Below, piece by piece: positions 11,137 to 32,240 of a DNA stretch of 64,000 nucleotides. The stretch covers positions 878 to 64,877 of the forward strand of contig CACEMW010000004.1 in the NCBI GenBank assembly GCA_902560705.1, given 5' to 3'. The notes under the pieces are model-generated. The model was not told where the DNA came from, did no database searches, and was given only the letters and a program-made list of their open reading frames with translations. The position numbers and the translations under genes are program-made. The stretch is from an uncultured Verrucomicrobiota bacterium (GTDB lineage: Bacteria; Verrucomicrobiota; Verrucomicrobiia; Limisphaerales; AAA164-E04). Position 1 is the first letter of the stretch; every line of letters begins with the position of its first letter.

Positions 11137-11266
11137 ATTAGACTCAAGTTACAAAGATATTTAACAAACGAAAATATGATTTCTGTTTTCCATTGAATCC
11201 TCAAAAACTAGGGGGCTCAATCGGAGATTGTGTTTTATGGCCCACCCTCAAGGAGAGCCTTACCTT

Positions 11267-11336
11267 CCCCACATCTACTTTTGCTGGATTTTTCCACTCA
11301 TGCAAAGTTCTCATTTCCACTGACTGGCATAGGCAC
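11267..11336. repeat. 70-nt repeat copy 2 (direct orientation relative to copy 1)
   Basis: ccccacatctacttttgctggatttttccactcatgcaaagttctcatttccactgactggcataggcac. The loop sequence is conserved, and two stem positions changed on both arms (t:a to g:c, a:t to c:g). Confidence 0.65.
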
Positions 11337-11516
11337 CCGTTCCCAAGTAATGTTATTTTACAAAAAAGCGTCTCAGCACGGCACACATCTAGAGGGTTCA
11401 AAAGGACCGCTACTGCCCGTGGTAGTTCCAAAGATTCGATTTCTTTTCCAAAAGAGGCCATTATTACGCTATTCTTTTCATTTAATTTTTATCCCCATTC
11501 TGCTATTATCAAACGT

Positions 11517-13439: not shown

Positions 13440-13461
13440 TCTCCCCTAACCACATAACATC

Positions 13462-17522: not shown

Positions 17523-20500
17523 TTAGTTCTCTTGGGAATCGACTGCCTCCAGTTGATCGAGATACCAAGCCGCCCTCTCATTTAATTTCGCGGCTCCTTC
17601 TGGATCAACCTTAGACAAGTTATCAAGCTTGGCAGCGTATTTTTGAACGATGAACGGGTCCGATGGCCTGAGAACCAAAGCCTGCTCAAGCGCATCTTTG
17701 GTGTTTTGTGTGACAAGAAAATCCAAATACCAATCTTTGCTCAAGTCACTTCCGGGGTGGATTTGGGTAAGGTATCCTTTTTGCCGCCACCTAAACCATT
17801 CATCCAGCTCCTCGCTTTCAAACACAAAAGAGTCGCTCGAAACTCGATCATCTTGTTGCAATATTTTTAATGCATTACTTTGATCTTGATAAACACGGGA
17901 AGTCGATATTGCATATTTTTCCATAGTATCTCGATCACTATTAGCTATCGAAAACTTGCTCCCTATCGGCCACAAAGAAATAGAGTTTTCGGCATAGATG
18001 TTCGCCAAATAGGCAAAGTTTGGATTGGATTTTATTTTCGAATAAAAGAAGTCACCAATTAGAGGCTGCTGAAAGGGGCCATCAACATATCTACCTGTAG
18101 AAAGACTAAATGCGTAAATAGCGCGATCCCGACTAAATGTATAAATCTGATCTGGATCGTGAGGATCAATACCGACTCCTATAGCCCAATCATCGACATT
18201 TAGTGTTTTTACGTTTTCCCCGCTCTTTGTGTCCCATATTTTGGTGGTTTTGTCCCTGGAACCGGTGATTAGATATTTACTGTCAGGAGTAAAGATCATA
18301 TCCATAACCCCACTAAAGTGGGAAAGCTCATGGAGCAATTCGCCAGTTTCTACGTCCCACACCATTGGCTTAAGTGCATCAGTGCCTATCCCAGTTGAAG
18401 TTGCAAACATTTTGCCGTCAGGCGAAAAGCAGATCGGAGATTTAAAAAAGAACCCATACTTCAGAGGGTCGTATTTCAAAGCCTTAGAGCGAACATCGAA
18501 AATTCGCGCACGACCATCTTGGCAAGCTGTAAGTATATGGTCATCATCAAAGCTAAATTCTAAATTAATTATCATACCCTTGTGAGAAGAGGACTCGAAG
18601 GATTTTTCATACTTGTTTCCGCGTAACTTTAAAACCGTGAAGTTGAAAGTATATCTATTCACGAACGCTATATGCTGTGAATCAGGTGACATTTTAATCA
18701 CATTGGTAAAATCTGGAAGATCCCCCTCAAATAATACTTCGAGATTATCAGAATCGTAAACATGCCACTTCCGAAAGTTCCCAAGGCCCTTTCCTTCTGC
18801 GACAAACAATTTTTTTCCTTCATCTACAAACATAGAGACTCTGGCTTCATCGGAGAGTTTAACTTTGCTGATGAGACGAATATCAGACAATGCCCACAAC
18901 TTAATTTCTCCATCCTTGGACACGGATACTAATTTTTGGCCATCCGGACTCAAATCAAAATCGAGTATTTGATTATCATGCGTGAGTAGGATGGGTTCAA
19001 TATTTGGGCTTTCCGTTTCAAACTCAAAAATCTTACCTTCTTTGTTCAAAACTCGGATACGCTTACCGTCCCTAGAAAATGATATTGCTCCAGGGTCAGA
19101 CCCTATGTTTGTAGGGCTATTAAGCAATTTACCATTATTCAAGTCCCAAACCCACAAATCATTGTGATCGGTTGCGCTTACTAACTTCATCATGTCTGGG
19201 CTGAAAACTGAGTGCCATGGGCCTCCATCGTGTGTGAGAGGCTGAATGGTCTCTTTCCCTGACTTTAAATCCCAAATTCTAACTGTCTGGTCAATAGACG
19301 GAGTGGCCAGTAGCCTACTGTCAGGGCTGATGCTTGCGTCCACAACAATACGAAAATGAGCACGTGATTCCTCCCACAAAAGCGTACCCATTTTTGCGTC
19401 AAAAACTTCCAAAGCACCTTGGATAGGGCTTCCCCCGTAGGATACTAGATACTTACTGTCAGGAGAATATTTACAGTAAACATGATTCCTCATATCACCG
19501 TCGGGTGTAGCGTAAATATTCTTAATTTCCAGACTGTAGACATTAATTTGATATAACTTGAAATAGGAGCCCTCCTCATTTTCTACTATTGCAATATTGC
19601 TACCGTCAGAGCTGATCCTTATATCGGCCACGCGACTATCAAGCTTATATTTCTTTAAGATTTTATTGTTGAAATCGAATATAAGCACCTCCCCCATGTT
19701 GGTGCCGACGCATATCAACCCCTTTGTTACCGCGAAACCAGTAATAAAATTATCAACTTCAATGCGCATTATACCATCAAAGGCTTCCAAACCTATAATG
19801 TCAGCCACGTTCGAGCCATTTAGATCGATGGCTGCAACGATCAAAAACTTAGAATCACTGCTGAACCTCAGCCCTTCAATTTGCTTGTATTTTTCGCTCT
19901 CGAAAACTGTTTGCCGGTTTTCCGTATCCACTATCTTGAAGAATGAATTATCGGTTTCATCATGCGCTGCTGCGTAATAAGTCAAATCAGGAGAACATTG
20001 TGATCCAAGAAACCACCTTACTTTAGCCTCAGAACCCAATTCAAAAATTTTGCCTCCATAATTCAGAAAAGGGCTATGGTCTAAAGTTGATTTTAATTTT
20101 TGGGAAAAGTAATCGATGTTAGGATTCTTACCACTTTCTGCAGCCATGTAAGCGAGCGCCTTCTGCGGGAGTCGCTCCATTGACATCTTATCGGCACTTT
20201 CAGCAACGGAATAACTGAGATTATTTTGGGCCTGTTTCTTGGCTGTGTCGGCTTCAAAAGCCATAAAAACAGCAACGCAGGCCAAAACAAAAAGCACTAG
20301 GGCAAATACTTTATTTCTTTTTGCCGATCTTTTTTGGATTTCCGCTCTCTGTTTTTCCGCATTTGCCAAGGCTCTGGCCTGTTCCAATTCTCGCTTGCGC
20401 GCCTCCTCCTTGGCTCGCTGCTCGGCCTCAAAGTCTTGCTTGGACTCATCAAGAAACCGCATTGCCAAGTCGAACGAATCATTGATTCGTGCCCCCCAGT

Positions 20501-21827
20501 TTCCATTGGGTTTGTTCTTTTCCCTCCAGGAAAGGGCAATTTTCAGGTCTGGATCCCGATAAAAACCAGCCTCCCCTAAACTATGAAGTTCAGCTGTTTC
20601 ACATAGACGAATGTAAATGCGTGCTGAGTCTGCTTCCTCATTGACCCACTGCTTGAGCCGGACCCATACGCGCATCAAACTTTCATGCGATATGTCAATG
20701 ATGACATGGTCATTAATTTTGACCGTTTCACCCGGCATGATAAAGGTTCGCCCGGTAGGTCGATAAGCATCAATGACGGTAAGCATTTTTTCACGCTCAT
20801 GCCCGGTAATCTCCTCTATCTCCCCAAAGGGCAGTGGTCGCCGAATCCCACGCCCATCAGCTTGTTTTTCGGTGATTGCCTTGAACAACTTCATGCATAG
20901 CAGGCGGTGTTGATCATGCGGAAGCGCTTGGTAAACTTCATCCGCATGTCGCGAAAGAGCTTCAGCCATACGCCCAATGGCATCGTAGTGCTCAAGGTCC
21001 ATGGGCACTGATTTATCCGTGTGCCCTTCCCAATAATCCCACATACGCATCAGTGCATGCTGCAATATGGGGAGCTGATCTGGATCATCCCCGATATCGT
21101 TGAGCAATTGTTGCTTTAGACGAGGCGATATTTCGCCACCCCCAACTTTGACCGGGCCTTCGATGGCTCGCGCCCGTTGTTTGCGATTAAGCCTTGGTAT
21201 GAGGTATTCCCCCTCGTTGACCGCCTCAGCCAAGCCCTTGAACTCCGCGCAATCTCCCAAAAAGTCGGATCGCATCGTGAGAATGATGAAGATGGGCACT
21301 TCAGATTGACGGGTAGTTTCCAGCAAAAGCTGAATAAAATGGGCCGCTTCTTGGCTCGCCTTGCTGCCACTTTGACGGAATCGGAAAATCTCCTCAAACT
21401 GATCCACCAAAAGCAGTAGATTGGCACCTTTTTCTATGGCTGATTGACGATACGCTTCAATCAAACCAAGGCCACTCCGACTTAACGTTGCGCGGGTTTG
21501 CAAAACATTCTCCTCATTCTCATCACCGAATAAACCCGATTCAACCAGGGAATCGGCCAAATTGGTCAAAGGGTCTCCACCTGGCCGCATGATGGCAAGC
21601 TCCCAGGCAATGGAGGTGCTGGTCATGGTCCCTCCATGGAGTTCGGGCAGCAACCCCGCCCGAACAAGAGAGGATTTCCCACTCCCTGAAGCACCCACTA
21701 CGGCTAGAAAACGAGTATTACCCAAACGCTGCAACAATTGTGAAACTTGTTCTTCCCGGCCAAAGAAAAGAAAATTCTCATCGAATTGAAATGGGCGCAG
21801 ACCGGGGAATGGATTACCGTCAAACAT
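17523..21827 (-). CDS. STAND-type P-loop NTPase with coiled coil, single TM helix and ~900-aa WD40-like repeat region (cassette A)
   Basis: 1434 aa. NTPase motifs: NPFPGLRPFQFDENFLFFGREEQ, Walker A GASGSGKSS (21672..21695), LLLLVDQFEE and TMRSDFLG. Coiled coil EAEQRAKEEARKRELEQARALANAEKQRAE. Hydrophobic span VFALVLFVLACVAVFMAF (20256..20309). Many blades follow (DQTVRIWDLKSGK, SKDGEIKLWAL, CQDGRARIFDV, SRDKTTKIWDTKSGE). Confidence 0.85.
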   Translation of the reverse strand: MFDGNPFPGLRPFQFDENFLFFGREEQVSQLLQRLGNTRFLAVVGASGSGKSSLVRAGLLPELHGGTMTSTSIAWELAIMRPGGDPLTNLADSLVESGLFGDENEENVLQTRATLSRSGLGLIEAYRQSAIEKGANLLLLVDQFEEIFRFRQSGSKASQEAAHFIQLLLETTRQSEVPIFIILTMRSDFLGDCAEFKGLAEAVNEGEYLIPRLNRKQRARAIEGPVKVGGGEISPRLKQQLLNDIGDDPDQLPILQHALMRMWDYWEGHTDKSVPMDLEHYDAIGRMAEALSRHADEVYQALPHDQHRLLCMKLFKAITEKQADGRGIRRPLPFGEIEEITGHEREKMLTVIDAYRPTGRTFIMPGETVKINDHVIIDISHESLMRVWVRLKQWVNEEADSARIYIRLCETAELHSLGEAGFYRDPDLKIALSWREKNKPNGNWGARINDSFDLAMRFLDESKQDFEAEQRAKEEARKRELEQARALANAEKQRAEIQKRSAKRNKVFALVLFVLACVAVFMAFEADTAKKQAQNNLSYSVAESADKMSMERLPQKALAYMAAESGKNPNIDYFSQKLKSTLDHSPFLNYGGKIFELGSEAKVRWFLGSQCSPDLTYYAAAHDETDNSFFKIVDTENRQTVFESEKYKQIEGLRFSSDSKFLIVAAIDLNGSNVADIIGLEAFDGIMRIEVDNFITGFAVTKGLICVGTNMGEVLIFDFNNKILKKYKLDSRVADIRISSDGSNIAIVENEEGSYFKLYQINVYSLEIKNIYATPDGDMRNHVYCKYSPDSKYLVSYGGSPIQGALEVFDAKMGTLLWEESRAHFRIVVDASISPDSRLLATPSIDQTVRIWDLKSGKETIQPLTHDGGPWHSVFSPDMMKLVSATDHNDLWVWDLNNGKLLNSPTNIGSDPGAISFSRDGKRIRVLNKEGKIFEFETESPNIEPILLTHDNQILDFDLSPDGQKLVSVSKDGEIKLWALSDIRLISKVKLSDEARVSMFVDEGKKLFVAEGKGLGNFRKWHVYDSDNLEVLFEGDLPDFTNVIKMSPDSQHIAFVNRYTFNFTVLKLRGNKYEKSFESSSHKGMIINLEFSFDDDHILTACQDGRARIFDVRSKALKYDPLKYGFFFKSPICFSPDGKMFATSTGIGTDALKPMVWDVETGELLHELSHFSGVMDMIFTPDSKYLITGSRDKTTKIWDTKSGENVKTLNVDDWAIGVGIDPHDPDQIYTFSRDRAIYAFSLSTGRYVDGPFQQPLIGDFFYSKIKSNPNFAYLANIYAENSISLWPIGSKFSIANSDRDTMEKYAISTSRVYQDQSNALKILQQDDRVSSDSFVFESEELDEWFRWRQKGYLTQIHPGSDLSKDWYLDFLVTQNTKDALEQALVLRPSDPFIVQKYAAKLDNLSKVDPEGAAKLNERAAWYLDQLEAVDSQEN

Positions 21828-21839
21828 GGTATTGATGGA

Positions 21840-23324
21840 TTATTGCTTGATTTGGGTGACGAATGGTTCGAGGGCGCTGAAGTCATTGCCGGGAATTTGA
21901 ATGATGTCAGCCAAATGAGAACGAAACCTCTCTTTGTGTCTACTTTCAGGAGGAGCCACAAGAATCGAAGTAGCTGTGATGGGTTTGGACCGCCCAAACC
22001 CAGAGGCTTTGATGAGGTTATTGAGTTTCATATTTACCCACTGTCGTGTGGCAGAACCAAAATAAATAAGGACCCCATCACAAATGCGGAGGTTTTCTAT
22101 GTGGGCCTCAGAAACCTCTGTTTCGCTTCCACTGAATAAGGGGATTACGACCTCCAACCCTTGATCAAAAAGGTAATCCTCGATGGCTTCGATCTTATCC
22201 TCGTCATCTGGTGGTGCCATCAAGTAGACCGTCGGCGGGCCTGCATCAGCACCATGATTCAACCCCTTATCGACCTTGTTCTTTTCTTCAGTAAAGTGAT
22301 CGATGACCAAGCCCTTAAATATTTCGAATGTCCCTTCAACAAAGTCCGTTTTCTCGTAGGTAGCAGGATTCACACGCAAGCCTTCAATGAACTTGGCTTG
22401 CCGTTCTTCCTTTGCCTCCAAACCTGACGGTAGCCAGATCAGTCGTTCAAGGCCGCGATTGGCTGACTCATCTGCTGCAAGACTCAACTGGGTCTCTATG
22501 ATAGACTCCGACCCAGCCTCAGGGATCATACCATAGTTTGCACCCAGTAAATGAATGGCCACATCCGCGTGTTTGAGATACTCCCGCACTTGTTCTTTGA
22601 CCTCAAGAGCATTCAATGGAAGATGGCTGTCCGGGAGAATCATGTACCCACGTTCACGAAGATCTCGCGCAATGTTGTCACGATCAGCACTTCGATCCCC
22701 TGAAACAGTAGCCAGGTAGACGGTCTTGCCGAGAGAAACTCTCAGCGCCTCAGGATTTGAAGGGGGAGTGCTACCTGCTCGCGATTTCTTTAAAATCTCG
22801 CAGATTTCGTATGCGAGATCATAGATCCGGCTGAAGTAATTCTGCTTGGCTTCCTTTCCGAAGGCTTCGTTATATTCCACAATTTTGCCATTTTCGTCGA
22901 AATCGTAGAAATTGAACCCAAGAACACTGCCGAAAATTTTCTGCAGTTCTGGCTGAAGTTCTTCGGCATCATAGGGCGTCTTAACGACCTTGAGAATGCG
23001 GGACTTCCCATCAAAGGCGACACCCCCGTTTACTTCCGCGCTTTGGTAAAATTGGGTGATTTCCTTCACGCACCACTCAGACTTGATGTAGCGGGGGCTG
23101 AGAATGGAAACCATGAGTTTGGTATGGTCAAACTGACTAAGAATTTTCTGGTCGAAAATATCATTGCCGGTGAGTTTCTGATCACGCCACACGCGTGGCT
23201 GCTCCCCCATAAGCTGAGCAAGGCGATTTTCCAAAATACGGTGAAACTCCGTAATCCAACCTTTCTCATCATCAGAGATCGAGAGATTGTCGATATGAGC
23301 GTAACTGATGAATAGATCATTCAT
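21840..23324 (-). CDS. TIR-domain protein with two further Rossmann-like (DUF4062/TIR-like) modules (cassette A)
   Basis: Start taken at MNDLFISYAHIDN (23324) by analogy with the paralogue. The TIR block is ILSPRYIKSEWCVKEI. Module 2 is TVYLATVSGDRSADR...HLLGANYGMIPE. Module 3 is TVYLMAPPDDEDKIEAIEDYLFDQGLEVVIP...DGVLIYFG. The gene ends 12 nt before the STAND start. Confidence 0.8.
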   Translation of the reverse strand: MNDLFISYAHIDNLSISDDEKGWITEFHRILENRLAQLMGEQPRVWRDQKLTGNDIFDQKILSQFDHTKLMVSILSPRYIKSEWCVKEITQFYQSAEVNGGVAFDGKSRILKVVKTPYDAEELQPELQKIFGSVLGFNFYDFDENGKIVEYNEAFGKEAKQNYFSRIYDLAYEICEILKKSRAGSTPPSNPEALRVSLGKTVYLATVSGDRSADRDNIARDLRERGYMILPDSHLPLNALEVKEQVREYLKHADVAIHLLGANYGMIPEAGSESIIETQLSLAADESANRGLERLIWLPSGLEAKEERQAKFIEGLRVNPATYEKTDFVEGTFEIFKGLVIDHFTEEKNKVDKGLNHGADAGPPTVYLMAPPDDEDKIEAIEDYLFDQGLEVVIPLFSGSETEVSEAHIENLRICDGVLIYFGSATRQWVNMKLNNLIKASGFGRSKPITATSILVAPPESRHKERFRSHLADIIQIPGNDFSALEPFVTQIKQ

Positions 23325-23815
23325 GAAAACAAAAGCACAACCTAGCGATGAATTATCTCCATCAGATCCGCCATGAAAAAGTCTTTTTTTTGTGAAAAAG
23401 TTCATGTGGAACCGCTACCCCTCTGGCACAGCTACCTTTTTTTGGCGGTATGGGAAGACGAGATGCGTGTGTTTCACATGCAGCGTTGGAAGGATTATGC
23501 CTATTGCACCCATTGCGATCGTTCTCTTCAAGAGGAAGAATGCCGTCTGAAAATCACTTATGGAGCCGGAAACAGGATCACCAAAACCTATTGCAATTAC
23601 TGTGAGAAGAGAGCCATTCGCAATCCTAAAGGTTCATCTAAAAGCTATGTCAGGAAACAACGCTGAAACAAGTTGTATACCCTTAATAAAACTTTCTTTT
23701 GAATACAATTTTTAGTTTTGAAAAGGCAAAACGGTTCTTCTAACTTTTGAAAGATACGTCTTTCTGGCAGATCACATTAATATAACCAGGAATACTCAAC
23801 TCTCCCCGAATCCGC
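23325..23815. promoter_or_regulatory. divergent control region between the two TIR-STAND cassettes
   Basis: A 491-bp gap between head-to-head TIR genes, AT-rich at 23667..23815. No promoter motifs were confidently identified. Confidence 0.35.
23463..23666 (+). CDS. small zinc-ribbon protein (67 aa), hypothetical
   Basis: MRVFHMQRWKDYAYCTHCDRS...(26)...CNYCEKRAIRNPKGSSKSYVRKQR has two CxxC pairs and a basic tail. It is the internal start of ORF 23373..23666. There is no homology evidence, so the coding status is uncertain. Confidence 0.3.
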   Translation: MRVFHMQRWKDYAYCTHCDRSLQEEECRLKITYGAGNRITKTYCNYCEKRAIRNPKGSSKSYVRKQR

Positions 23816-25318
23816 ATGAACGATATATTCATCAGTTACGCTCACATGGACGATCAAGTCCTGGATGAAGACCAAAAGGGTTGGATCACCAAATTTCATC
23901 GGGTCTTGCGTGTTAAATTGGGCCAGCTCATGGGTGAACCCGCCAAAATATGGCGCGATGAAAAACTCTCAGGCACTGACGTCTACGACGACAAGATCGT
24001 CAGCGAATTCAAGAAGGCCAAGGTCATGATCTCCGTCCTCAGCCCCCGCTACATCAAGTCGGAATGGTGCAATCGCGAGCTGAACGAATTTTATGAAGCA
24101 GCCGAAAATGAGTCCGGAATCCGTGTGGGAGAAAAATCACGGCTTATCAAGGTGGTCAAGACGCCCTTTGATAACGACCAGGCAGCAGAGCATCTCCCCA
24201 AGATTTTTGAAGCTATCTTGGGGTTTGATTTTTTTGAGCAGGACCCCGAGTCCGGTCGTATTGTCGAATTCGACGAGGCATTTGGGGTGAAGGCCAAGCA
24301 GAATTACTATTCGCGTATCTATGACCTTGCTTCTGAAATCGCCGATATTCTCAAGCACATGGAGGGTGGTTCCTCGAGCACTCCACAGACCGAGCCTCTG
24401 GCCAAAACAGGTAAGACGGTCTATCTGGCGGCGGTGACCTCCGACATTCAAACGGGACGGGAAAAACTTCTCCGAGAACTGACCGATCGCGGTCACCGTG
24501 TATTGCCTGACCGCCCCCTCCCCAACGCGGGTCAGGAATTAATGGAAGCCATTGGTAACCTGTTGAGGCAGTCCGACTGCTCCATTCACATGGTGGGTCA
24601 GAAGTATGGTATGATCCCTGAAGACAGCGCGCACTCCATCGCAAAATTACAGAATGATCTAGCCACGGAACGCATTGAGAACCATCCCGAATTTCATCGT
24701 TTCATCTGGATGCCGCAAGCCGTCTTGACCGATGATGACCGCCAGCGCCAATTTATTACCGAATTAAGGGAAGACCCACGTGCCCATACCGGTGCCGATT
24801 TGTTGGAAGATTCCCTCGATCATTTTCGAGACTATGTGGTGGAAAAGCTCAAGCCCAAACCCAAATCGAAAACACTCTCAAGCCTGACAAGCTCCGACAT
24901 TGAGGCAAGTGGCAACTCTGCCGTTTATCTGATCTACGATATGAAGGATGACGAGGTTGTTGCCCCTCTTGAAGATTACCTTTTCGACCAAGGTTTGGAG
25001 GTCATGTTGCCTACGTTCGATGGTGAGGAGGCTGACATCAAGCGAGCCCACATTGAAAAGATGATCCACTGCGACGCCGTCCTGATCTATTACGGACAGG
25101 CCGACCGATCGTGGGTCGACATGAAACTGATGAATCTGATGAAGGCACCGGGGTATGGCAAGGAAAGCCCTTTCAAGGCACAAACCGTGTATTTGGCTCC
25201 TCCCATGGATCGGCGCAAGCAGCGTTACCGCACCCACTCAGCGGAAGTGGTTGTCCAGGAAAGTGAGGCCTTTGAACCCTCGCTCCTGGATTCCTTCGTT
25301 TCCACCCTCAAGTCCTAA
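23816..25318 (+). CDS. TIR-domain protein with two further Rossmann-like (DUF4062/TIR-like) modules (cassette B)
   Basis: Contains MNDIFISYAHMDD and VLSPRYIKSEWCNRELNEF (candidate catalytic Glu at 24077..24079). Module 2 spans about 24410..24715 (TVYLAAVTSD...HMVGQKYGMIPE). Module 3 spans about 24917..25150 (AVYLIYDMKDDEVVAPLEDYLFDQGLEVMLP...DAVLIYYG). Confidence 0.85.
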   Translation: MNDIFISYAHMDDQVLDEDQKGWITKFHRVLRVKLGQLMGEPAKIWRDEKLSGTDVYDDKIVSEFKKAKVMISVLSPRYIKSEWCNRELNEFYEAAENESGIRVGEKSRLIKVVKTPFDNDQAAEHLPKIFEAILGFDFFEQDPESGRIVEFDEAFGVKAKQNYYSRIYDLASEIADILKHMEGGSSSTPQTEPLAKTGKTVYLAAVTSDIQTGREKLLRELTDRGHRVLPDRPLPNAGQELMEAIGNLLRQSDCSIHMVGQKYGMIPEDSAHSIAKLQNDLATERIENHPEFHRFIWMPQAVLTDDDRQRQFITELREDPRAHTGADLLEDSLDHFRDYVVEKLKPKPKSKTLSSLTSSDIEASGNSAVYLIYDMKDDEVVAPLEDYLFDQGLEVMLPTFDGEEADIKRAHIEKMIHCDAVLIYYGQADRSWVDMKLMNLMKAPGYGKESPFKAQTVYLAPPMDRRKQRYRTHSAEVVVQESEAFEPSLLDSFVSTLKS

Positions 25319-25344: not shown

Positions 25345-27831
25345 ATGCCAGCTCAAGCTCACAATCCATTCCCAGGCCTGCGACCTTTTGAATTCGACGA
25401 CAACCCGCACTTCTTTGGCCGCGATGAACAAACCACCGAACTGACCACTCGGCTGAGGAAAAATCGTTTCGTGGCAGTGGTCGGAACCTCAGGCAGCGGA
25501 AAGTCCTCCCTGGTACGTGCCGGCCTGCTCCCTGAGTTACTCAGTGGAACCATGTCCGGTGCCGGTTCCAGCTGGGAAACGACCATCATGCGCCCCGGCG
25601 GAGATCCCTTGACCAATTTGGCGCAGAGCATGGTCGATGCTGACTTATATGATCCTGATGAAGAAGACATCGCCGCTCAAGTAAGAGCTACTTTGACCCG
25701 CAGTGGGCTGGGACTGGTCGAAGCCATTCGCCAGAGCGATCTTTCTCAAGGGACCAACTTTCTTCTAGTCGTCGATCAATTTGAGGAAATCTTTCGATTT
25801 CGACGTAGCGAGGATGCCACTGACGAGCAGGCAGCCTTTTTTGTCAACCTGCTGCTGGAGGCCAGTGCGCAAAGCGATTTACCACTCTATGTCATTATCA
25901 CGATGCGGTCCGATTTCCTGGGAGAGTGCAGTCAATTTCCACGGTTGGCAGACACCGTCAATGAGGGCGAGTTTCTCATCCCACGCCTGAATCGGGATCA
26001 ACGTAAGGAAGCCATCCTGGGGCCGGTCAAAGTCGCGGGAGGCAGCATGACGGATCGTCTGCTCTTGCGCCTGCTCAATGATATCGGAGACGATCCCGAT
26101 CAGCTCCCCATTCTCCAACACGCCCTCATGCGTACTTGGGACCTGTTCGCCGCGCATCATGAAACGGGAGATCTCGACCTGGAGCACTACCATGCCACCG
26201 GAGGGATGAATGAGGCCCTCAGTCGACATGCTGATGAGGTATATGGAGACCTACCGGATCCAGAGCACCAGCGCATTGCACAAAAGTTATTCAAGTCGCT
26301 AACCGAAAAGGTTGATGCTAACCGAGGCATACGTCGGCCCATGGCGTTGAAGGAATTGCAAGAGATCTGCGGAGGGGAAGAAGTGCACCTGCGATCGGTC
26401 GTCGATGCCTTCCGGAGGACAGGATGCACCTTTCTCATGCCAGCCGGAGAGGCAGAGATCACACTGAAAACCATCATCGATATCTCCCATGAAAGCCTGA
26501 TGCGGGTGTGGAAAACGTTGAAAGACTGGGTCGATAATGAGGCCCAATCTGCCAAAATCTACCGCCGACTGGCCGACACTGCCAGTCTCTACGCAGATGA
26601 CAAGGCTGGCTTGTATCGCGACCCGGATCTGGGGATTGCCCTGGCATGGCGGCAAGAAAACCAACCCAACCAGACCTGGGCGGACCGGTATTACCCAGGT
26701 TTCCCGGAGGCCATGGCGTTTCTGGAAGCCTCTCAGACAGAAGCTCAACGGGAGGCCAGGGAAAAGGAAGAAGCCCGCAAACGTGAACTAGCACAGGCGA
26801 AAGCACTGGCTGAGGCAGAAAGGGAAAAGGCCGAATCTGAACGACGGGCTGCCATTAAACTGAAACGCCTAATTGCCGGGCTCACAATAGCTATGGGAAT
26901 CGCAATCCTGAGCACGATAATGGCATTCTCGGCCATGAAGAGAGCGAAAGCTAGTGAGGAAAAAGCAATTTTGTCTTTGGTGAGCAGCCAAGAATTATCA
27001 GTTGATGATGTCCGCAAAGCGCTGAATATCATCCATCGAGACGGTCTCGATTTCAAAATGCTATTAACTTCATTGCGACAGAAGGCTTGGGCTTATTACA
27101 CAAGTGGAAATTTAGTTTCTGCAAATGTTGCGATGGAAGCAGCAACCGAGATCAGCCCTAACCATAAAGATTCCCAATTATTACTAGGCTTAATAAAAGC
27201 TAAAAAAGGAGACATAAGCGACTGCCTTGATAAAATAGAACTCTTTACAAACTTGGAAGCAGAGAACCCAAGTAATGATGGATGGGCGACGATTCGTTGG
27301 ATGAAAGGAGCTGCAGTGTTGGGAGTAATTGGAGACGCAGAGATCCAAAAGCAATACTGCGAAACGATGTTCAAGGCATTGCCAGTTCCAGATGATATAA
27401 TTGGTGAACGATGCGCGAAAGCTGCTTTAATATTAAAAGTGCCGGATAATCTTTACCATAAAGCCTATGACTATGCTTTGGTCGCAAACGAAGAAAGGGA
27501 GGGCTCTGATTCCTCGGGTTTGGTGGCATGGAACAGGTGTACAATGGGACTGGCTAGTCTTAGGCTAAACAAGTTAACCGAAGCCTCAAGATGGTTGGAT
27601 AAATCCATGGATGCCATGAGTGGTAACAATCTTTTGGTTCGGGGCCTTAATGTAGCCATACGCGCTCTCGTGGAACTTAAGATGGGGAACATTTTGGAGT
27701 CAAAGCAAACCTTAGACAGTGCGAAAGAAATCTACAACAATATAGATAAGAGCCATGGCGGCTGGCACGATGTACTTTTTGTGGACCTACTAATATCTGA
27801 AGCTGAAGATTTAATCCAAAAACAAAATTAA
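25345..27831 (+). CDS. STAND-type P-loop NTPase with coiled coil, single TM helix and helical (TPR-like) C-terminal region (cassette B)
   Basis: 828 aa. NTPase motifs: NPFPGLRPFEFDDNPHFFGRDEQ, Walker A GTSGSGKSS (25483..25506), LLVVDQFEE and TMRSDFLG. Coiled coil REAREKEEARKRELAQAKALAEAEREKAE. Hydrophobic span LIAGLTIAMGIAILSTIMAFS (26869..26931). About 300 aa of helix-rich repeats follow. Confidence 0.85.
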   Translation: MPAQAHNPFPGLRPFEFDDNPHFFGRDEQTTELTTRLRKNRFVAVVGTSGSGKSSLVRAGLLPELLSGTMSGAGSSWETTIMRPGGDPLTNLAQSMVDADLYDPDEEDIAAQVRATLTRSGLGLVEAIRQSDLSQGTNFLLVVDQFEEIFRFRRSEDATDEQAAFFVNLLLEASAQSDLPLYVIITMRSDFLGECSQFPRLADTVNEGEFLIPRLNRDQRKEAILGPVKVAGGSMTDRLLLRLLNDIGDDPDQLPILQHALMRTWDLFAAHHETGDLDLEHYHATGGMNEALSRHADEVYGDLPDPEHQRIAQKLFKSLTEKVDANRGIRRPMALKELQEICGGEEVHLRSVVDAFRRTGCTFLMPAGEAEITLKTIIDISHESLMRVWKTLKDWVDNEAQSAKIYRRLADTASLYADDKAGLYRDPDLGIALAWRQENQPNQTWADRYYPGFPEAMAFLEASQTEAQREAREKEEARKRELAQAKALAEAEREKAESERRAAIKLKRLIAGLTIAMGIAILSTIMAFSAMKRAKASEEKAILSLVSSQELSVDDVRKALNIIHRDGLDFKMLLTSLRQKAWAYYTSGNLVSANVAMEAATEISPNHKDSQLLLGLIKAKKGDISDCLDKIELFTNLEAENPSNDGWATIRWMKGAAVLGVIGDAEIQKQYCETMFKALPVPDDIIGERCAKAALILKVPDNLYHKAYDYALVANEEREGSDSSGLVAWNRCTMGLASLRLNKLTEASRWLDKSMDAMSGNNLLVRGLNVAIRALVELKMGNILESKQTLDSAKEIYNNIDKSHGGWHDVLFVDLLISEAEDLIQKQN

Positions 27832-27955: not shown

Positions 27956-29374
27956 CTAAACCCCGCCCAGAGCCCCGGTGCTGTCGGCAAAGGCGTCGGT
28001 TTCCACGCCCAGGCGATGCAGCATGGAGACGAAAAGGTTGGAGAGAGGCACATCCTCCTGCTGGGCTTTTTGAGTCCAGGGTTCCTTGTCTCCGGGTTTC
28101 CATCCGCCTCGGTAGGCTTTGGCACCGGCATGATTGAGGTAATATCCATGGGACACACCCAGACTTTGGCCCCCCGCTAGAATTAGAGGATAGTTGCGTG
28201 AAAGGTGGAAGGCGCTGGAGGCGGATCCAAAAAGCACCAGACTGTGATCCAGCAGGGCCCCCTGCCCTCCGGGCTCAGGCGTGTTTTTCAGCCGTTGAAT
28301 GAAGCGGGCCAGCTCTTCATGCAGAAATTGGCAGTAGAGGGCGAAATTCTTCCAGCCATCGGGCTGCTTGGTTTCATGGGAGAGCTGGTGGGCGGCAGGA
28401 AAACCGATCGCCTGTGAGAGTCGATCACTGATCCCCACCCCGTTCTCACGTCCAATTTGATAAGTCGCCACACGCGTCGAATCGGTCTGAAAGGCCAGAG
28501 AAATCAACTCGAACATATTCCGTAGATAGGCTCTTGGTTGATCAGGAGAAACTTCCAGATCGAGGTGATCCCTTTGGACTGAAGGCAAGGGGGTGTTCAT
28601 CCACTGCCTGGCCTTCTGCACCCGAAGCTCTGCTTCACGCACCGACTGCAAGTATTCTTCCAGACGGGCCTGGTCACCTGATGGGAGCCTTGACCTGAGC
28701 TGCCGGGCGTCTTCCAGCAGGTCATCCAGAGCGCTCTGGCTGTGGGCCAGTTGCTGGGCCGCCTGCGCACTGTTCTTGACAAAGAGCCCGTCAAAGATGC
28801 GCTTAGGGCGATTCTCCGCAGGAATGGCTCGCCCCTGCCGATTGAAGGACAGGGTGTGTGCCCCCCGTGCCGTCCCCGTGCCGCCTTCCGTCGACAGGAC
28901 CAGTGAGGCGTGCCGGGTTTGGTCACCCACCTTCTCGGCGTAGAGTTGATCCAAGGAGAGCGTGTTCTGGTAGTCCATATCCCCCGTGCCCGTCGCCGCT
29001 CCAGTCAGGAACATATCGGCGTTGTTGTGGCCATGCACGTTGCGACCGGCTGTATGCGACAGCCCGGAAAGAATGGTGAAGTCCTCACGGAGGGCTTCCA
29101 GGGGCTTCATGCACTGGGTCAAGGCGTAGTCCCTGCCCTGCCCGTGAGGGAACCAGGCCCAGTCTTGATGGGCTGGATCATCGGGGCGCGGCATGGGCAC
29201 CCCATCCGGGAAGTAAAAACAGGCCAGCCTCCGGGGTGGCTGGGCGTTGCCCTGCCCCAAGGTTTTCACTCCAGAGAAGGATTCAAAAAGTGGAAGGGCC
29301 AATGCCCAGCCAGTGCCGCGAAGAAATCGACGGCGATCCAAGCGGTTCCAGGGAATATGAAAGGAGGCGTTCAT
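27956..29374 (-). CDS. DUF1552-family protein with Tat-type signal
   Basis: Contains DRRRFLRGTGWALALPLFESF, DSTRVATYQ, HQLSHE and YPLILAGG. The start overlaps the upstream stop (ATGA). Confidence 0.8.
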   Translation of the reverse strand: MNASFHIPWNRLDRRRFLRGTGWALALPLFESFSGVKTLGQGNAQPPRRLACFYFPDGVPMPRPDDPAHQDWAWFPHGQGRDYALTQCMKPLEALREDFTILSGLSHTAGRNVHGHNNADMFLTGAATGTGDMDYQNTLSLDQLYAEKVGDQTRHASLVLSTEGGTGTARGAHTLSFNRQGRAIPAENRPKRIFDGLFVKNSAQAAQQLAHSQSALDDLLEDARQLRSRLPSGDQARLEEYLQSVREAELRVQKARQWMNTPLPSVQRDHLDLEVSPDQPRAYLRNMFELISLAFQTDSTRVATYQIGRENGVGISDRLSQAIGFPAAHQLSHETKQPDGWKNFALYCQFLHEELARFIQRLKNTPEPGGQGALLDHSLVLFGSASSAFHLSRNYPLILAGGQSLGVSHGYYLNHAGAKAYRGGWKPGDKEPWTQKAQQEDVPLSNLFVSMLHRLGVETDAFADSTGALGGV

Positions 29375-32040
29375 GGTGATAAAAAGAGTTCACTGGTTCC
29401 AATCAGCTGGATCAGCGAGGCCAGCCCGTCTCCTTGCTGACGGACTTGAGAGGCGATCGCTTCGACGGCTGCATGATCGGAAAAGTGCAAGGGTCGACCT
29501 AGGGCATAGACGCATAACTTGTAGGTCATCGCCAGCACAAACTGATCTTGACGCTCCTTTAACAGGAAGCGCTTGAGACCGTCCATGCCCTCCAGAGGCT
29601 GGTCGTTGAATAGATGGCTGGTGGCATCCACCGGTTTGCCTTCGATGTCATCGCGCCATCGCCCAAAGGCGTCAAAGTTTTCAAAGGCAATACCCCACGG
29701 ATCAATCTTTGCGTGACAGGACATGCAGGCCTCTTGATTGCGATGATCGGCCAGACGCTCCTTGAGGGTCATGCGGGCGATCTCCGGATCGGCCAGATCA
29801 ATTTCAGGAACCGTAGGGGGCGGAGGCGGAGGCGGATCATTCAACAGGTTTTTCAGCATCCAGATCCCGCGTTTAAGGGGATGTGAATCTTCCCCACTGG
29901 CATTCATAGCCAGAAAACCGGCTTGGGTCAGGATGCCTCCTCGCTTTGAATCACCCTTGAGCGCCACTGGGCGAAAATCATTTCCATGCACATCAGGTAT
30001 CCCGTAATGCCGGGCGAGACGCTCGTTGACCAGGGTGTGATCGGCGTGGATGAAGTCGAGCAGGCTGGCATTGGATCGAAGGCTTTGGTCAAAGAACAGG
30101 ACAGGTTCTTTCTGCATTGCTTCCTTGAGCGCCTGATCCATCACGGCATTGGGTTTGAGGAAATCCAACAACTCCATGCCCAACCATTGAGGAACAAAGC
30201 GTTCTGCAAGCCGGTGAGATCTTGGATCAGCCAGCATGCGCTCGATCTGCGTCACAAGGACCTCTGATGAACTGAGCTCCCCTTGCTGAGCCAACTCAAG
30301 CAACGGTTGATCCGGCAGACTACTCCACAGAAACATGGCAAGTCGTGTAGCCAACGCCTCGTGGGTCAGCCGATGAGCCACCAAATAGCCATTCGGCTCC
30401 TTGGTGGGGACTGTTTGCGCGCTCAAATACAGAAAGTTGGGAGAGGACAGAACAGTCGCCAGCACTTCGACCACTGCCTCTTCCAGCCCAGAAGTCGTGG
30501 GTCGAACCGCTTCATACAAGGCAAGCTTGCGATCCAGCTCTGCATCGGAAATCGCCCGCCGCCACATCTTCGGCATCCAGTGCTCCAGCAAATGCCTGAC
30601 GTAGACGGCTTCCTCCTTGAACTCGTCGCTGTCGAAAAAAACGCGCTGGTGCGAAGCTGGTGGCCACTCGGCTTGGTAAGGAGCGATGATTTCCACGTAA
30701 TCGATCTGAATATCGCCCTGAGACACCGAGCTATTGACCAGGCGAATGTGTTCAGACGGGCTGGGCGTGCCTCCCATGGGAGAGATCTTGCGCACATTGT
30801 TACGAGGATAAATGTCGCCCAGTGGAATATCCCATTGGTAAAACTCTGGAGCCTCAGGCGGGGCGTCGACGGGAAGATCGCGCTCACTGACGCGCATCAA
30901 GGCACGTCCTTCATTGCTGGCCTGCCAGCCAAAATGAAGCTGCAGACTGGGGATGGTCGCCTCTTCCTGCGAGGTTCTGGAAGCCCGCACCCGCACCCGC
31001 ATCAGCCCCTCATCGGGGAGTTGGTCTCCCAGCTCCACCACCAGTTTGTGATGCCCCCCAGGGGGCAGGATGGCGACTGTATCCGAAACCTCGGGAAGTT
31101 CCGGCGGATTCTCGGTTGGAGCAAAGGCGTATTTGGCGCCTCCGTAACTCCAAGTATGACGGGCAGTTCTTTCACTGGAGCGGTTGTAGTAGTAAACCCC
31201 AACGTGAGACGCCTTCAATTCAGTCAACTTTTGTTCGAGCTTTTGCTCAAGAGCCTGCGGATCGTCCTGATGGGCTTCTCTTAGTTTCTCAAGGGCCTCT
31301 TCCTGCTCTTTCCAAAGGGTTCGACTAGCCTGTTGCATGGAGACCCCCCAGTAAAGAGTCGGTGGCCTGGTCCCCAAAGCGGTGGCACGCTTGAGAGCCT
31401 GGCGAGCCAGTTGACGGTAGCTTTCCAGTTGGCTCACCGACATGTGCAAATGCTCCACGCTATTTTTGAAACCATCCTCTGAGCGGGCCTCAGGAGGCAA
31501 ATCTCGGCCAAATTGCCAAGGTAGCCCCAGAAGGTCCTGCAGGGCGTAATTGTATTCATAGGCGGTCATGCGCCTGAAGGAGGATGGATTCTGATCGGAA
31601 CGCCGAAGCATCGAGGCAGTTCGAATCTCACCGGAAAGCCATTCCATGACCTGTGCGCGATCGCCCTGCGTCAAGGCCGATTCTTCCGGAGGGGGCATCT
31701 CGCCGTTGCCAAGGACCGCTCGCACCTCTACCCACCAATCCACATCTGAGCCTTCGTGCAGGTTCGGATCGAGCTGATCGATACGGAGGCGTGCCTTGGT
31801 TTTTTCAGGACCATGACAAGGCACGCAGTGCTGTTTAAGAATGGGGGCAATAGCCTGATCAAAGGATTGGAGCTTCGGCTTCGGGCGCTGGTTTGCCAAT
31901 GACTCCCTCGTCCGAAGCCTAAGTAGAGAGTCACGAGCCCCTTCAAGCTTGAGCTCGTTCAACGCGGACACATGGGTTGCCGCGCTGAGTGAGCCTAGGC
32001 TAACCAGCAAACACAAGATACCATATCGCATCCAAGACAT
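29371..32040 (-). CDS. secreted DUF1587/DUF1592/DUF1595/DUF1588/DUF1585-family protein with an N-terminal CXXCH
   Basis: The ATG at 32040 gives signal peptide MSWMRYGILCLLVSLGSLSAA. Motifs: CVPCHGPEK, RRMTAYEYNYALQDLLGL, GILTQAGFLAMNASGEDSHPLKRGIWMLKNLL and CMSCHAKIDPWGIAFENFDAFGRWRD. Confidence 0.8.
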   Translation of the reverse strand: MSWMRYGILCLLVSLGSLSAATHVSALNELKLEGARDSLLRLRTRESLANQRPKPKLQSFDQAIAPILKQHCVPCHGPEKTKARLRIDQLDPNLHEGSDVDWWVEVRAVLGNGEMPPPEESALTQGDRAQVMEWLSGEIRTASMLRRSDQNPSSFRRMTAYEYNYALQDLLGLPWQFGRDLPPEARSEDGFKNSVEHLHMSVSQLESYRQLARQALKRATALGTRPPTLYWGVSMQQASRTLWKEQEEALEKLREAHQDDPQALEQKLEQKLTELKASHVGVYYYNRSSERTARHTWSYGGAKYAFAPTENPPELPEVSDTVAILPPGGHHKLVVELGDQLPDEGLMRVRVRASRTSQEEATIPSLQLHFGWQASNEGRALMRVSERDLPVDAPPEAPEFYQWDIPLGDIYPRNNVRKISPMGGTPSPSEHIRLVNSSVSQGDIQIDYVEIIAPYQAEWPPASHQRVFFDSDEFKEEAVYVRHLLEHWMPKMWRRAISDAELDRKLALYEAVRPTTSGLEEAVVEVLATVLSSPNFLYLSAQTVPTKEPNGYLVAHRLTHEALATRLAMFLWSSLPDQPLLELAQQGELSSSEVLVTQIERMLADPRSHRLAERFVPQWLGMELLDFLKPNAVMDQALKEAMQKEPVLFFDQSLRSNASLLDFIHADHTLVNERLARHYGIPDVHGNDFRPVALKGDSKRGGILTQAGFLAMNASGEDSHPLKRGIWMLKNLLNDPPPPPPPTVPEIDLADPEIARMTLKERLADHRNQEACMSCHAKIDPWGIAFENFDAFGRWRDDIEGKPVDATSHLFNDQPLEGMDGLKRFLLKERQDQFVLAMTYKLCVYALGRPLHFSDHAAVEAIASQVRQQGDGLASLIQLIGTSELFLSP

Positions 32041-32240
32041 GATCAAAAATCCACTGAGTTCATCATCCGTTGCGCTGTAGGCATTCACCGATGTGACACA
32101 CCACTTCAACAAAATAGATCCGCTTGCCACTTGAAACAAGGCCCTTTTCCGCCTCGCTCATAGAGTTGTTCACTTCATGGCCTGGATTGAGCAAACTGCA
32201 TCAACCGCTGCCTGGCCTGACGGCGAAGAGATAGTTGAAA

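What the first reader, a model, noticed from the sequence alone, without database searches (positions are those of the whole stretch)
21840..25318. TIR proteins carry two extra TIR/DUF4062-like Rossmann modules instead of a known sensor or partner domain
Seen: after the canonical TIR domain (residues 1 to about 175) both paralogues contain two further segments with the beta-strand/acidic-loop/helix rhythm of small Rossmann-like domains. Module 2 is TVYLA[AT]V[ST].D...R....L...G..[VI]LPD...[HM][LV]G..YGMIPE. Its G.xYG motif resembles what I remember of DUF4062, a domain often found at the N-terminus of STAND proteins. Module 3 is [AT]VYL[IM]...D[DE]......EDYLFDQGLEV[MV][LI]P........I....I...D[AG]VLIY[YF]G. 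Established: TIR, DUF4062 and nucleoside 2-deoxyribosyltransferase-like domains share a flavodoxin-like fold, and TIR activity depends on self-association. Inference: the tandem modules could be degenerate TIR-like units. They might template filament or oligomer assembly, bind a nucleotide signal, or dock onto the STAND oligomer.
Basis: partly seen in the sequence, partly recalled or inferred. Interest (0 to 1): 0.6.

Follow-up and report, generated by a model that had tools for sequence, protein, structure and literature searches.

The report
TIR protein with two dead TIR-like modules
Both genes encode a probably active NAD-cleaving TIR domain followed by two conserved TIR-like domains that lack the catalytic residue, and this protein is always encoded just upstream of a membrane-anchored STAND ATPase; the architecture is already listed in a 2021 supplement, but the loss of catalysis has not been described.

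Summary

- **The genes.** The two genes (45% identical) each encode three (beta/alpha)5 modules joined by disordered linkers.
- **Module 1** is a TIR domain that keeps its catalytic Glu (E88).
- **Module 2** is a Pfam DUF4062 domain (also called NIR or DrHyd). Three 2026 preprints showed this family to be a TIR-like NADase. Here an invariant Gln (Q279 / Q306) replaces the catalytic Glu in 73 of 73 relatives from six phyla.
- **Module 3** matches no Pfam, NCBIfam or PDB sequence. It folds confidently (pLDDT 93), and its best structural matches are nucleoside deoxyribosyltransferases, DNPH1 and TIR domains. It has no conserved acid at the catalytic position.
- **Conservation.** Both extra modules are as conserved as the TIR core.
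- **Partner gene.** An nSTAND1 NTPase gene lies immediately downstream in all four copies in this genome and in 76 of 80 related loci; the other four contigs end at the gene. Every partner long enough to judge has one transmembrane helix (63 of 63).
- **Variable head.** The N-terminal head varies (TIR, kinase, cyclase), while module 3 and the nSTAND1 neighbour stay constant.
- **Best reading.** The extra modules are non-catalytic docking or assembly units for the STAND partner. This is inferred, not shown.
- **Prior record.** Kaur et al. 2021 list the architecture in supplement rows only. This scan has also met the family on other DNA.

The parts
23816..25318 (+). Gene B: 500-aa three-module protein (TIR, Gln-variant DUF4062, module 3)
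   Evidence: ORF, translation, Pfam, AF2 model with pLDDT 81.5
23816..24364 (+). Gene B module 1: TIR domain, residues 1-183. The catalytic Glu E88 (codon 24077-24079) sits in SEWCNRELNEF
   Evidence: Pfam TIR_2 E=2.6e-18. Foldseek hits to SARM1, AbTir, MyD88 and RUN1 TIR domains. E88 is kept in 62 of 73 relatives and in all ~500-aa forms
24413..24850 (+). Gene B module 2: DUF4062/NIR/DrHyd-type domain, residues 200-345. Gln279 (codon 24650-24652) occupies the catalytic Glu position
   Evidence: Pfam DUF4062 at 29.0 bits, cut-off 24.7. PDB profile hit to KpSwz 10wc_A. hhalign 96%. Q279 is invariant in 73 of 73
24917..25315 (+). Gene B module 3: unannotated TIR/NDT-like (beta/alpha)5 domain, residues 368-500
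   Evidence: AF2 pLDDT 93.4 and pTM 0.87. Foldseek top hits are NDT, MilB, DNPH1, TIR-1 and RRS1 TIR. No Pfam, NCBIfam or PDB sequence hit
21840..23405 (-). Gene A: paralogue, 521-aa ORF. The likely true start is Met28 at nt 23324, giving 494 aa
   Evidence: ORF, translation, 45% identity to gene B, homologues start at MND
22779..23324 (-). Gene A module 1: TIR domain (ORF residues 28-209)
   Evidence: Pfam TIR_2 E=9e-14; alignment to gene B
22293..22727 (-). Gene A module 2: DUF4062-type domain (ORF residues 227-371). Gln306 (codon 22488-22490) occupies the catalytic Glu position
   Evidence: Pfam DUF4062 at 25.6 bits, residues 229-307 matching profile positions 2-79; alignments
21843..22235 (-). 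Gene A module 3 (ORF residues 391-521)
   Evidence: Aligned with gene B module 3
17523..21827 (-). Partner of gene A: nSTAND1 NTPase, one TM helix, WD40 propellers (1434 aa). It starts 12 nt after gene A ends
   Evidence: Pfam nSTAND1 E=1e-92 plus WD40. A TM helix follows the NTPase module in all 63 partners from related loci that were long enough to score; in this window's own two partners the hydrophobic span was seen by eye in the translations
25345..27831 (+). Partner of gene B: nSTAND1 NTPase, one TM helix, TPR-like repeats (828 aa). It starts 26 nt after gene B ends
   Evidence: Pfam nSTAND1 E=1.6e-99; translation

Best explanation
Each gene encodes the cytoplasmic effector half of a two-gene STAND (NLR-like) system. 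The N-terminal TIR domain is the probable enzyme: it cleaves NAD+ or makes an NAD-derived signal. The two following modules are catalytically dead members of the TIR/DUF4062/NDT fold group. They act as a fixed C-terminal cassette that couples whatever head domain is present (TIR here; kinase or cyclase elsewhere) to the nSTAND1 NTPase encoded immediately downstream. That partner has no effector domain of its own. It is anchored by one TM helix, with its repeat sensor predicted outside the cytoplasm. On activation, the NTPase modules would oligomerise at the membrane. The cassette would then dock on or co-polymerise with that oligomer and bring TIR heads close enough to form composite active sites. 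Shown here: the fold and family of each module, the loss of the catalytic Glu, strong conservation, strict gene linkage, and the swapping of heads. Inferred: physical docking, activation by oligomerisation, the topology, and any role in immunity.
For: **Module 2 is DUF4062 with Gln at the catalytic position.**
- The solved KpSwz E97A chain carries Ala where its Vibrio homologue has Glu83.
- Pfam coordinates place Vibrio E83 and P0002 Q279 both on profile position 78.
- hhalign (96%, E=2e-9) and MAFFT give the same pairing.
- Q279 is invariant in 73 of 73 relatives.
- E-to-Q or E-to-A changes at this position abolish NADase activity and defence in PsAvs2, Vulcan, Vesta and KpSwz.

**Module 3 has a TIR/NDT-like fold.** The position on alphaC equivalent to the catalytic Glu is D/R/N/E.

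**The extra modules are under selection.** They are as conserved as the TIR core, while the linkers are free to vary.

**The nSTAND1 gene lies directly downstream.**
- This holds in 4 of 4 copies in this genome.
- It holds in 76 of 80 related loci from six phyla; the other four contigs end at the gene.
- It still holds when module 3 sits next to a kinase or cyclase instead of the usual arrangement.

**The head domain varies.** Pkinase, guanylate cyclase or extra TIR domains occur. In the kinase-fused forms the TIR itself has lost its catalytic Glu in 11 of 19, yet all three TIR-like modules are retained. This argues for a non-catalytic role of the array.

**The partners.** The nSTAND1 partners begin directly with the NTPase module and have no effector domain.

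**Precedent.** Inactive TIR domains proposed to support multimerisation occur in TIR-ParA(-STAND) systems.
Against: - No interaction, oligomerisation or NADase activity was tested, and no complex prediction could be run.
- The nSTAND1 partner carries no copy of module 2 or 3. Docking would therefore be heterotypic, unlike the homotypic 'EAD principle' described for such systems.
- The conserved residues of both modules lie in the loops after strands A, C and D (one search read against the secondary structure). This is the usual ligand-binding face of the fold, so it fits ligand binding as well as docking.
- Gene linkage shows only that the two proteins work together, not which domain contacts the partner.
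- Neighbouring genes in the window are ordinary PVC-type genes, not defence genes.
Confidence: 0.55

Rival explanations
1. Modules 2 and/or 3 are ligand-binding pseudoenzymes. They keep the nucleotide pocket of the NADase fold and bind NAD+, ADP-ribose or a TIR-made signal without cleaving it. This would regulate the TIR head allosterically or drive feed-forward assembly.
For: Gln279 is invariant rather than drifting, and the neighbouring family hallmarks are kept (D210, R215/R220, G261, Y264-G265, S274). E-to-Q is the classic substitution that removes catalysis while retaining substrate binding, and it was used as the dead control in PsAvs2, Vulcan and Vesta. The invariant residues of module 3 (D378, E386, D387, W433, K468, R470) lie in the loops after strands A, C and D, where the pocket sits in this fold.
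Against: No ligand docking or binding data exist. The DUF4062 'E-Y' and Q/W/E motifs named in the Evangelion preprint are both absent from module 2. Module 3 shows no significant sequence similarity to any nucleotide-binding family. This reading is compatible with the docking model and may be true together with it.
Confidence: 0.25
2. Module 2 is still an enzyme. It would use a relocated acid (the nearly invariant E269 in YG-x-x-P-E) or Gln-assisted chemistry, so the protein would carry two catalytic domains.
For: E269 is Glu in 70 of 73 relatives and Asp in the other 3. It sits in the betaC-alphaC loop next to the pocket, and canonical DUF4062 proteins have no fixed acid there.
Against: In every tested DUF4062 protein the alphaC Glu is essential, and E-to-Q or E-to-A kills activity. 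The following aromatic residue of the 'E-Y' motif is also lost here (Q-N). Human NWD1, NWD2 and NPHP3 DUF4062 proteins showed no NADase activity in vitro, so inactive members of the family exist.
Confidence: 0.08
3. The extra modules are decaying relics of a domain triplication and have no function of their own.
For: Module 2 against module 3 gives only a weak in-register profile match (E about 0.01-0.05). This is what an ancient duplication would leave.
Against: Both modules are as conserved as the TIR core across six phyla, with 14-15 near-invariant columns each, while the linkers are unconstrained. Module 3 is found in 1384 representative clusters and travels with different head domains.
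Confidence: 0.02

Closest known systems
[quoted passage not shown]
   Same: The architecture and gene order are the same. 'TIR+DrHyd' occurs 92 times and 'nSTAND1+TM' 412 times in that file, and 'TIR+DrHyd+TIR' 9 times. Rows labelled DrHyd carry NCBI's name 'DUF4062 domain-containing protein'.
   Different: These are supplement rows only. The main text names nSTAND1 once and never names DUF4062; it does mention DRHyd in a list of effector domains, but the passages read do not discuss this pair, the Glu-to-Gln change or the nature of the third module. Most rows omit the third module altogether.
DUF4062 / NIR TIR-like NADases: Swarozyc (KpSwz), NIR-Avs2 (PsAvs2), Vulcan, Vesta, Evangelion, human TEP1 (bioRxiv 10.64898/2026.05.01.722283, 2026.09.04.749371, 2026.06.25.731849)
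   Same: Module 2 belongs to the same Pfam family (PF13271). It shares the fold and the hallmarks on strand A, helix A and the G-x-Y-G motif, and it is associated with a STAND NTPase.
   Different: In those proteins DUF4062 is the effector and needs its alphaC Glu (E97, E108, E98, E103, E1008). Here that residue is an invariant Gln, the domain is internal, an active-looking TIR sits in front of it, and the STAND is a separate, membrane-anchored protein.
Inactive TIR domains FxsC-C and TIR-FT in TIR-ParA(-STAND) systems (bioRxiv 10.64898/2026.10.19.760177)
   Same: An active TIR (TIR-FC) is fused to a further, catalytically dead TIR-like domain and is encoded upstream of an NTPase that can include nSTAND1. 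The authors propose that the dead TIRs support multimerisation. The window's TIR gives its only NCBIfam hit to FxsC_Nterm.
   Different: There is no ParA module here (nSTAND1 starts at residue 6-8). The FxsC_Nterm score is 54 bits against a cut-off of 130. Whether FxsC-C is homologous to module 2 or 3 could not be tested.
Plant RRS1/RPS4 paired TIRs and animal adaptor TIRs (MyD88, MAL)
   Same: These are non-catalytic TIR domains that act through TIR-TIR assembly. The RRS1 TIR is among the best structural matches of module 3 (TM 0.64).
   Different: Sequence identity is only 12-16%, the proteins are in a different kingdom, and there is no evidence of common descent beyond the fold.

Membership tests
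TIR domain (Pfam TIR_2 PF13676), catalytic type | Profile match above the gathering cut-off | tested here: met
   67.1 and 52.4 bits against a cut-off of 28
TIR domain (Pfam TIR_2 PF13676), catalytic type | Catalytic Glu on helix alphaC (W-C-x-x-E context) | tested here: met
   E88 in SEWCNRELNEF is invariant in the 40-sequence alignment and kept in 62 of 73 of the broad set. It is lost only in long kinase-fused forms. Its identification as the catalytic residue rests on my knowledge of the plant and bacterial TIR motif, not on a structural superposition
TIR domain (Pfam TIR_2 PF13676), catalytic type | NAD+ cleavage activity | not testable with these tools
   Needs a biochemical assay
DUF4062 / NIR (Pfam PF13271), module 2 | Profile match above the gathering cut-off | tested here: met
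   29.0 and 25.6 bits against 24.7. All four copies in this genome are over the cut-off. hhalign to Swarozyc-like proteins gives 96%
DUF4062 / NIR (Pfam PF13271), module 2 | Catalytic Glu of the 'E-Y' motif (KpSwz E97, PsAvs2 E108, TEP1 E1008) | tested here: not met
   Gln279/Gln306 occupies that position (profile position 78), followed by Asn/Leu instead of Tyr/Phe. Module 2 is therefore a member by descent but not a member of the active NADase group
DUF4062 / NIR (Pfam PF13271), module 2 | TIR-like five-stranded (beta/alpha)5 fold | tested here: met
   AF2 gives strands at 201-204, 228-230, 255-259, 294-299 and 327-331 with intervening helices, pLDDT 85-95
TIR / nucleoside 2-deoxyribosyltransferase-like fold group, module 3 | Structural similarity to solved members | tested here: met
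   The top 22 Foldseek PDB hits are all NDT, MilB/BcmB, DNPH1 or TIR domains (E 2e-4 to 1.6e-3, TM 0.48-0.67). Generic flavodoxin-like folds appear only from rank 23
TIR / nucleoside 2-deoxyribosyltransferase-like fold group, module 3 | Significant sequence or profile similarity to TIR, DUF4062 or NDT families | tested here: not met
   No Pfam hit and no NCBIfam hit. A PDB profile search found nothing relevant. hhalign gives E=0.39 against DUF4062, 0.6 against TIR and 0.01 against module 2, the last at 4% probability
TIR / nucleoside 2-deoxyribosyltransferase-like fold group, module 3 | Conserved catalytic Glu | tested here: not met
   The alphaC positions 435/436 are D30/R27/N11/E4 and M/I/S/R. 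No invariant acid follows strands C or D
nSTAND1-centred two-gene conflict or signalling system (Kaur et al. 2021) | nSTAND1 NTPase gene adjacent and co-directional | tested here: met
   Pfam nSTAND1 E=1e-92 and 1.6e-99, with gaps of 12 and 26 nt. The same holds in 76 of 80 related loci
nSTAND1-centred two-gene conflict or signalling system (Kaur et al. 2021) | Role in defence against invaders | not tested
   No defence genes flank the cassettes, and PADLOC gives only weak TIR/ThsB-type hits
TIR-ParA / FxsC-type system | ParA-like NTPase in the downstream gene | tested here: not met
   The downstream proteins match nSTAND1 from residue 6-8 with no ParA domain
TIR-ParA / FxsC-type system | FxsC_Nterm equivalog score | tested here: not met
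   50-56 bits against a cut-off of 130

The most novel reading that the evidence does not exclude
The Gln-variant DUF4062 plus module 3 pair is a previously unrecognised heterotypic adaptor cassette built from dead NADase folds. It plugs interchangeable heads (TIR, Ser/Thr kinase, nucleotide cyclase) onto a transmembrane nSTAND1 receptor whose sensor lies outside the cytoplasm. Module 2 would keep its NAD-type pocket as a built-in ligand gate.
Probability: 0.3. Interest if true: 0.75.

Novelty: new variant of a known kind. Interest (0 to 1): 0.5.

Why it matters
DUF4062/NIR was recognised as an NADase effector only in 2026. This family is a natural, strictly conserved Glu-to-Gln version of that domain. 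It sits between an active-looking TIR and a third TIR-like domain that no database models. That makes it a ready-made case for asking what catalytically dead TIR-like domains do: scaffold, adaptor or ligand sensor. The same question is open for human NWD1, NWD2 and NPHP3, whose DUF4062 domains showed no NADase activity. The strict pairing with an effector-less, membrane-anchored STAND protein also offers a simple two-gene system. It could be used to test how a STAND oligomer recruits an effector in trans. Module 3 occurs in more than 1,300 representative protein clusters and deserves a family model of its own.

Tried and rejected
1. **Sequence routes to module 3.**
   - Pfam, NCBIfam, a PDB profile search, and hhalign against TIR and against canonical DUF4062 all gave nothing significant.
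   - Only the structure identified the fold.
2. **Module 2 against module 3.** The profile comparison aligns in register over about 100 columns, but only at E 0.01-0.05 and 1-4% probability. This is too weak to claim an internal duplication.
3. **Foldseek with the full-length model.** It mixed hits from the three modules and could not assign them. Module 3 was therefore modelled alone.
4. **Comparison with FxsC-C and TIR-FT.**
   - No FxsC sequence could be obtained. A tblastn of the TIR region against plasmids found only two Methylocella TIR proteins.
   - The FxsC_Nterm model matched none of the 14 control genomes.
   - The preprint has no supplements held as text.
5. **Apparent module 3-nSTAND1 fusions.** Three representatives (P0257, P0262, P0213) look like fusions. 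At least two contain garbled stretches typical of frame errors on short metagenome contigs, so I do not count them as Rosetta-stone evidence.
6. **Prevalence in the phylum.**
   - Module 3 was found in none of 300 other genomes sampled from the phylum. The family is therefore patchy.
   - This is not evidence of absence from the phylum, because many Verrucomicrobiota MAGs carry it.
7. **Known defence system.** I considered this and rejected it. PADLOC gives only weak TIR/ThsB-type hits.


Full report
**What is there.** The interval holds two divergently transcribed genes. Gene A is at 21840-23405 on the minus strand (a 521-aa ORF). Gene B is at 23816-25318 on the plus strand (500 aa). Their products are 45% identical end to end. 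Nearly all homologues begin MND..., so gene A most likely starts at its Met28, nt 23324. Each gene is followed, 12 and 26 nt downstream on the same strand, by a large nSTAND1 NTPase gene. These are 17523-21827 with WD40 propellers and 25345-27831 with TPR-like repeats. The closest database relative (96% identity) is annotated from a Limisphaerales MAG.

**Checking the observation.** Pfam finds TIR_2 at the N-terminus of both proteins. Nothing in Pfam or NCBIfam covers 'module 3'.

AlphaFold2 on a 40-sequence alignment (mean pLDDT 81.5) gives three separate beta-alpha-beta-alpha... modules of five strands each, at 1-183, 201-344 and 369-499. The linkers at 185-197 and 348-365 have low confidence.

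In a 73-sequence family alignment drawn from six phyla, mean pairwise identity is 48% for the TIR core, 43% for module 2 and 49% for module 3, but only 10-14% for the linkers. Each module has 13-15 columns that are at least 95% conserved. The extra segments are real, selected domains.

**Module 2 is a DUF4062 domain without its catalytic residue.** Three 2026 preprints show that DUF4062 (renamed NIR) is a TIR-like NADase. Its activity depends on one Glu: KpSwz E97, PsAvs2 E108, Vulcan E98, VstA E103 and TEP1 E1008. E-to-Q or E-to-A mutants are dead.

I anchored that residue as follows. The solved KpSwz 15-C E97A chain (PDB 10wc_A) aligns over its full length with a Vibrio plasmid homologue. 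It carries Ala at chain position 84, where the homologue has Glu83 in S-Y-T-E-K-E-F-D-Y-A. That Glu is invariant in seven canonical DUF4062 proteins. Three independent alignments then place Gln279 of gene B (Gln306 of gene A) on this Glu:
- Pfam coordinates. Vibrio residues 6-87 match profile positions 1-82, so E83 is position 78. Gene B residues 202-278 match positions 2-77, so Q279 is position 78.
- hhalign of the family's module 2 against canonical DUF4062 (probability 96%, E=2e-9).
- MAFFT.

Gln279 is invariant in 73 of 73 family members. The aromatic residue that follows the Glu in the 'E-Y' motif is also replaced. Module 2 is therefore a DUF4062 by descent that nature has fixed in the same state experimenters use as a catalytically dead control. 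A nearly invariant Glu269 in the preceding loop keeps open a small chance of relocated catalysis.

**Module 3 is a TIR/NDT-like fold with no database family.** Modelled alone on a 47-sequence alignment, it folds with pLDDT 93.4 and pTM 0.87 into a five-stranded (beta/alpha)5 domain. Its top 22 Foldseek matches in the PDB are all nucleoside 2-deoxyribosyltransferases, the CMP N-glycosidases MilB and BcmB, DNPH1, or TIR domains (TIR-1/SARM1, RRS1, RPS4). These have E 2e-4 to 1.6e-3 and TM 0.48-0.67. Generic flavodoxin-like proteins appear only below them.

Sequence methods see nothing. The alphaC position that would hold a catalytic Glu is D/R/N/E across the family. Its invariant residues (Y371, D378, E386, D387, G393, W433, K468, R470) fall in the loops after strands A, C and D. 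This was read from the secondary structure, not measured in three dimensions.

A search of 1.8 billion representative proteins with module 3 alone gives 1384 clusters at E<=1e-3. The match lies at the C-terminus in nearly all of them.

**Context.** This 52%-complete genome has four such genes, two in the window and two on another contig. Each sits directly upstream of an nSTAND1 gene with a different C-terminal region: WD40, TPR or a concanavalin-like lectin domain.

In 80 related loci from Verrucomicrobiota, Planctomycetota, Acidobacteriota, Bacteroidota, SAR202 and Alphaproteobacteria, 76 have the nSTAND1 gene immediately downstream. The remaining four contigs end at the gene. The partners start directly with the NTPase module and carry no effector domain. 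All 63 that are long enough have one hydrophobic helix, preceded by a basic stretch, 60-80 residues after the NTPase. This fits a first-reader note on this window.

The head of the effector protein varies. About 800-aa forms carry a protein kinase in front of the three modules. Others carry a nucleotide cyclase, duplicated TIRs or a duplicated module 2, and one has module 3 N-terminal to a kinase. Where context could be read, these variants are still followed by an nSTAND1 gene. In 11 of 19 long (mostly kinase-fused) forms the TIR itself has lost its catalytic Glu, yet Gln279 and all three modules are kept.

**How it most likely works.** The constants are module 3 (usually with module 2) and the nSTAND1 neighbour. 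The variable is the enzymatic head. That is the signature of an adaptor.

I therefore read modules 2 and 3 as non-catalytic docking or assembly units. They would couple the head in trans to the oligomerising, membrane-anchored STAND protein and concentrate TIR heads so that composite active sites can form (confidence 0.55). The retention of a dead TIR in kinase-fused forms supports a structural role for the whole TIR-like array.

The main rival, which may be true at the same time, is that the dead pockets still bind NAD+ or an NAD-derived ligand and gate the system (0.25). Residual catalysis by module 2 (0.08) and functionless relics (0.02) are unlikely.

No binding, activity or topology was tested. 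A defence role is also not shown: the flanking genes are ordinary PVC-type genes, and PADLOC recognises no known system.

**What is known.** The architecture is not new to print. Supplementary file 1 of Kaur et al. [quoted passage not shown] DrHyd there corresponds to proteins that NCBI names DUF4062. The main text mentions nSTAND1 only once and, in the passages I read, does not discuss this pair.

An October 2026 preprint from the same laboratory describes catalytically inactive TIR domains (FxsC-C, TIR-FT) next to an active TIR in TIR-ParA(-STAND) systems, and it suggests a multimerisation role. The window's TIR gives its only NCBIfam hit to FxsC_Nterm, but far below the cut-off, and there is no ParA here. 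I could not obtain an FxsC sequence to test whether FxsC-C equals module 2 or 3.

Earlier reports of this scan describe the same family on other genomes. One of them gave me the lead to the 2021 supplement, which I then verified.

As far as I could find, three points are new:
- the invariant Glu-to-Gln state of the DUF4062 module;
- the definition of module 3 as a widespread, unmodelled TIR/NDT-like domain;
- the constant-cassette, variable-head pattern tied to nSTAND1.

**Verdict.** The function remains inferred. This is a new variant of a known kind of system, of moderate interest.

Noticed in passing
window 17523-21827 and 25345-27831; partners in L006-L085: All 63 nSTAND1 partners from related loci that were long enough to judge have a single hydrophobic helix, preceded by a basic stretch, 60-80 residues after the NTPase module. 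The variable sensor (WD40, TPR, lectin) would therefore lie outside the cytoplasm. The window's own two partners show the same span by eye. Topology is untested.
   Followed up: partly
window 11193-14835 (+) and 27956-32139 (-): The two cassettes are bracketed by inverted paralogous gene pairs (DUF1592/PSD-type plus DUF1552), which gives the whole 21-kb region a roughly palindromic layout. No defence or mobile-element genes are adjacent.
   Followed up: no
G000 contig C14 (L005: 1027-6858 + and 9416-16016 -): There are two more TIR-DUF4062-module 3 / nSTAND1 pairs in the same genome, one of them with a concanavalin-like lectin (Laminin_G_3) sensor. That makes four pairs in a 52%-complete MAG. 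Module 3 was found in none of 300 other genomes sampled from the phylum.
   Followed up: partly
L015, L019, L021, L022, L025, L028, L029, L034, L036, L039, L046: In long, mostly Planctomycetota forms with an N-terminal extension of about 250-450 residues, the TIR catalytic Glu is replaced by F, G, H, I, L or D. In Pfam-scanned representatives of similar length, that extension is a protein kinase. Gln279 of module 2 stays invariant.
   Followed up: partly
P0208, P0240, P0210, P0241 (representative proteins): Rare architectures exist: TIR-mod2-mod2-mod3; module 3 flanked by two TIR_2 domains with no module 2; and module 3 N-terminal to a kinase. The last is still followed by a gene that begins with the nSTAND1 N-terminal motif NPFPGLRPF.
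   Followed up: partly
   Followed up: no
window 18001-20000: The WD40-coding part of the nSTAND1 gene is 41% G+C, against 48-58% in the neighbouring 2-kb bins.
   Followed up: no
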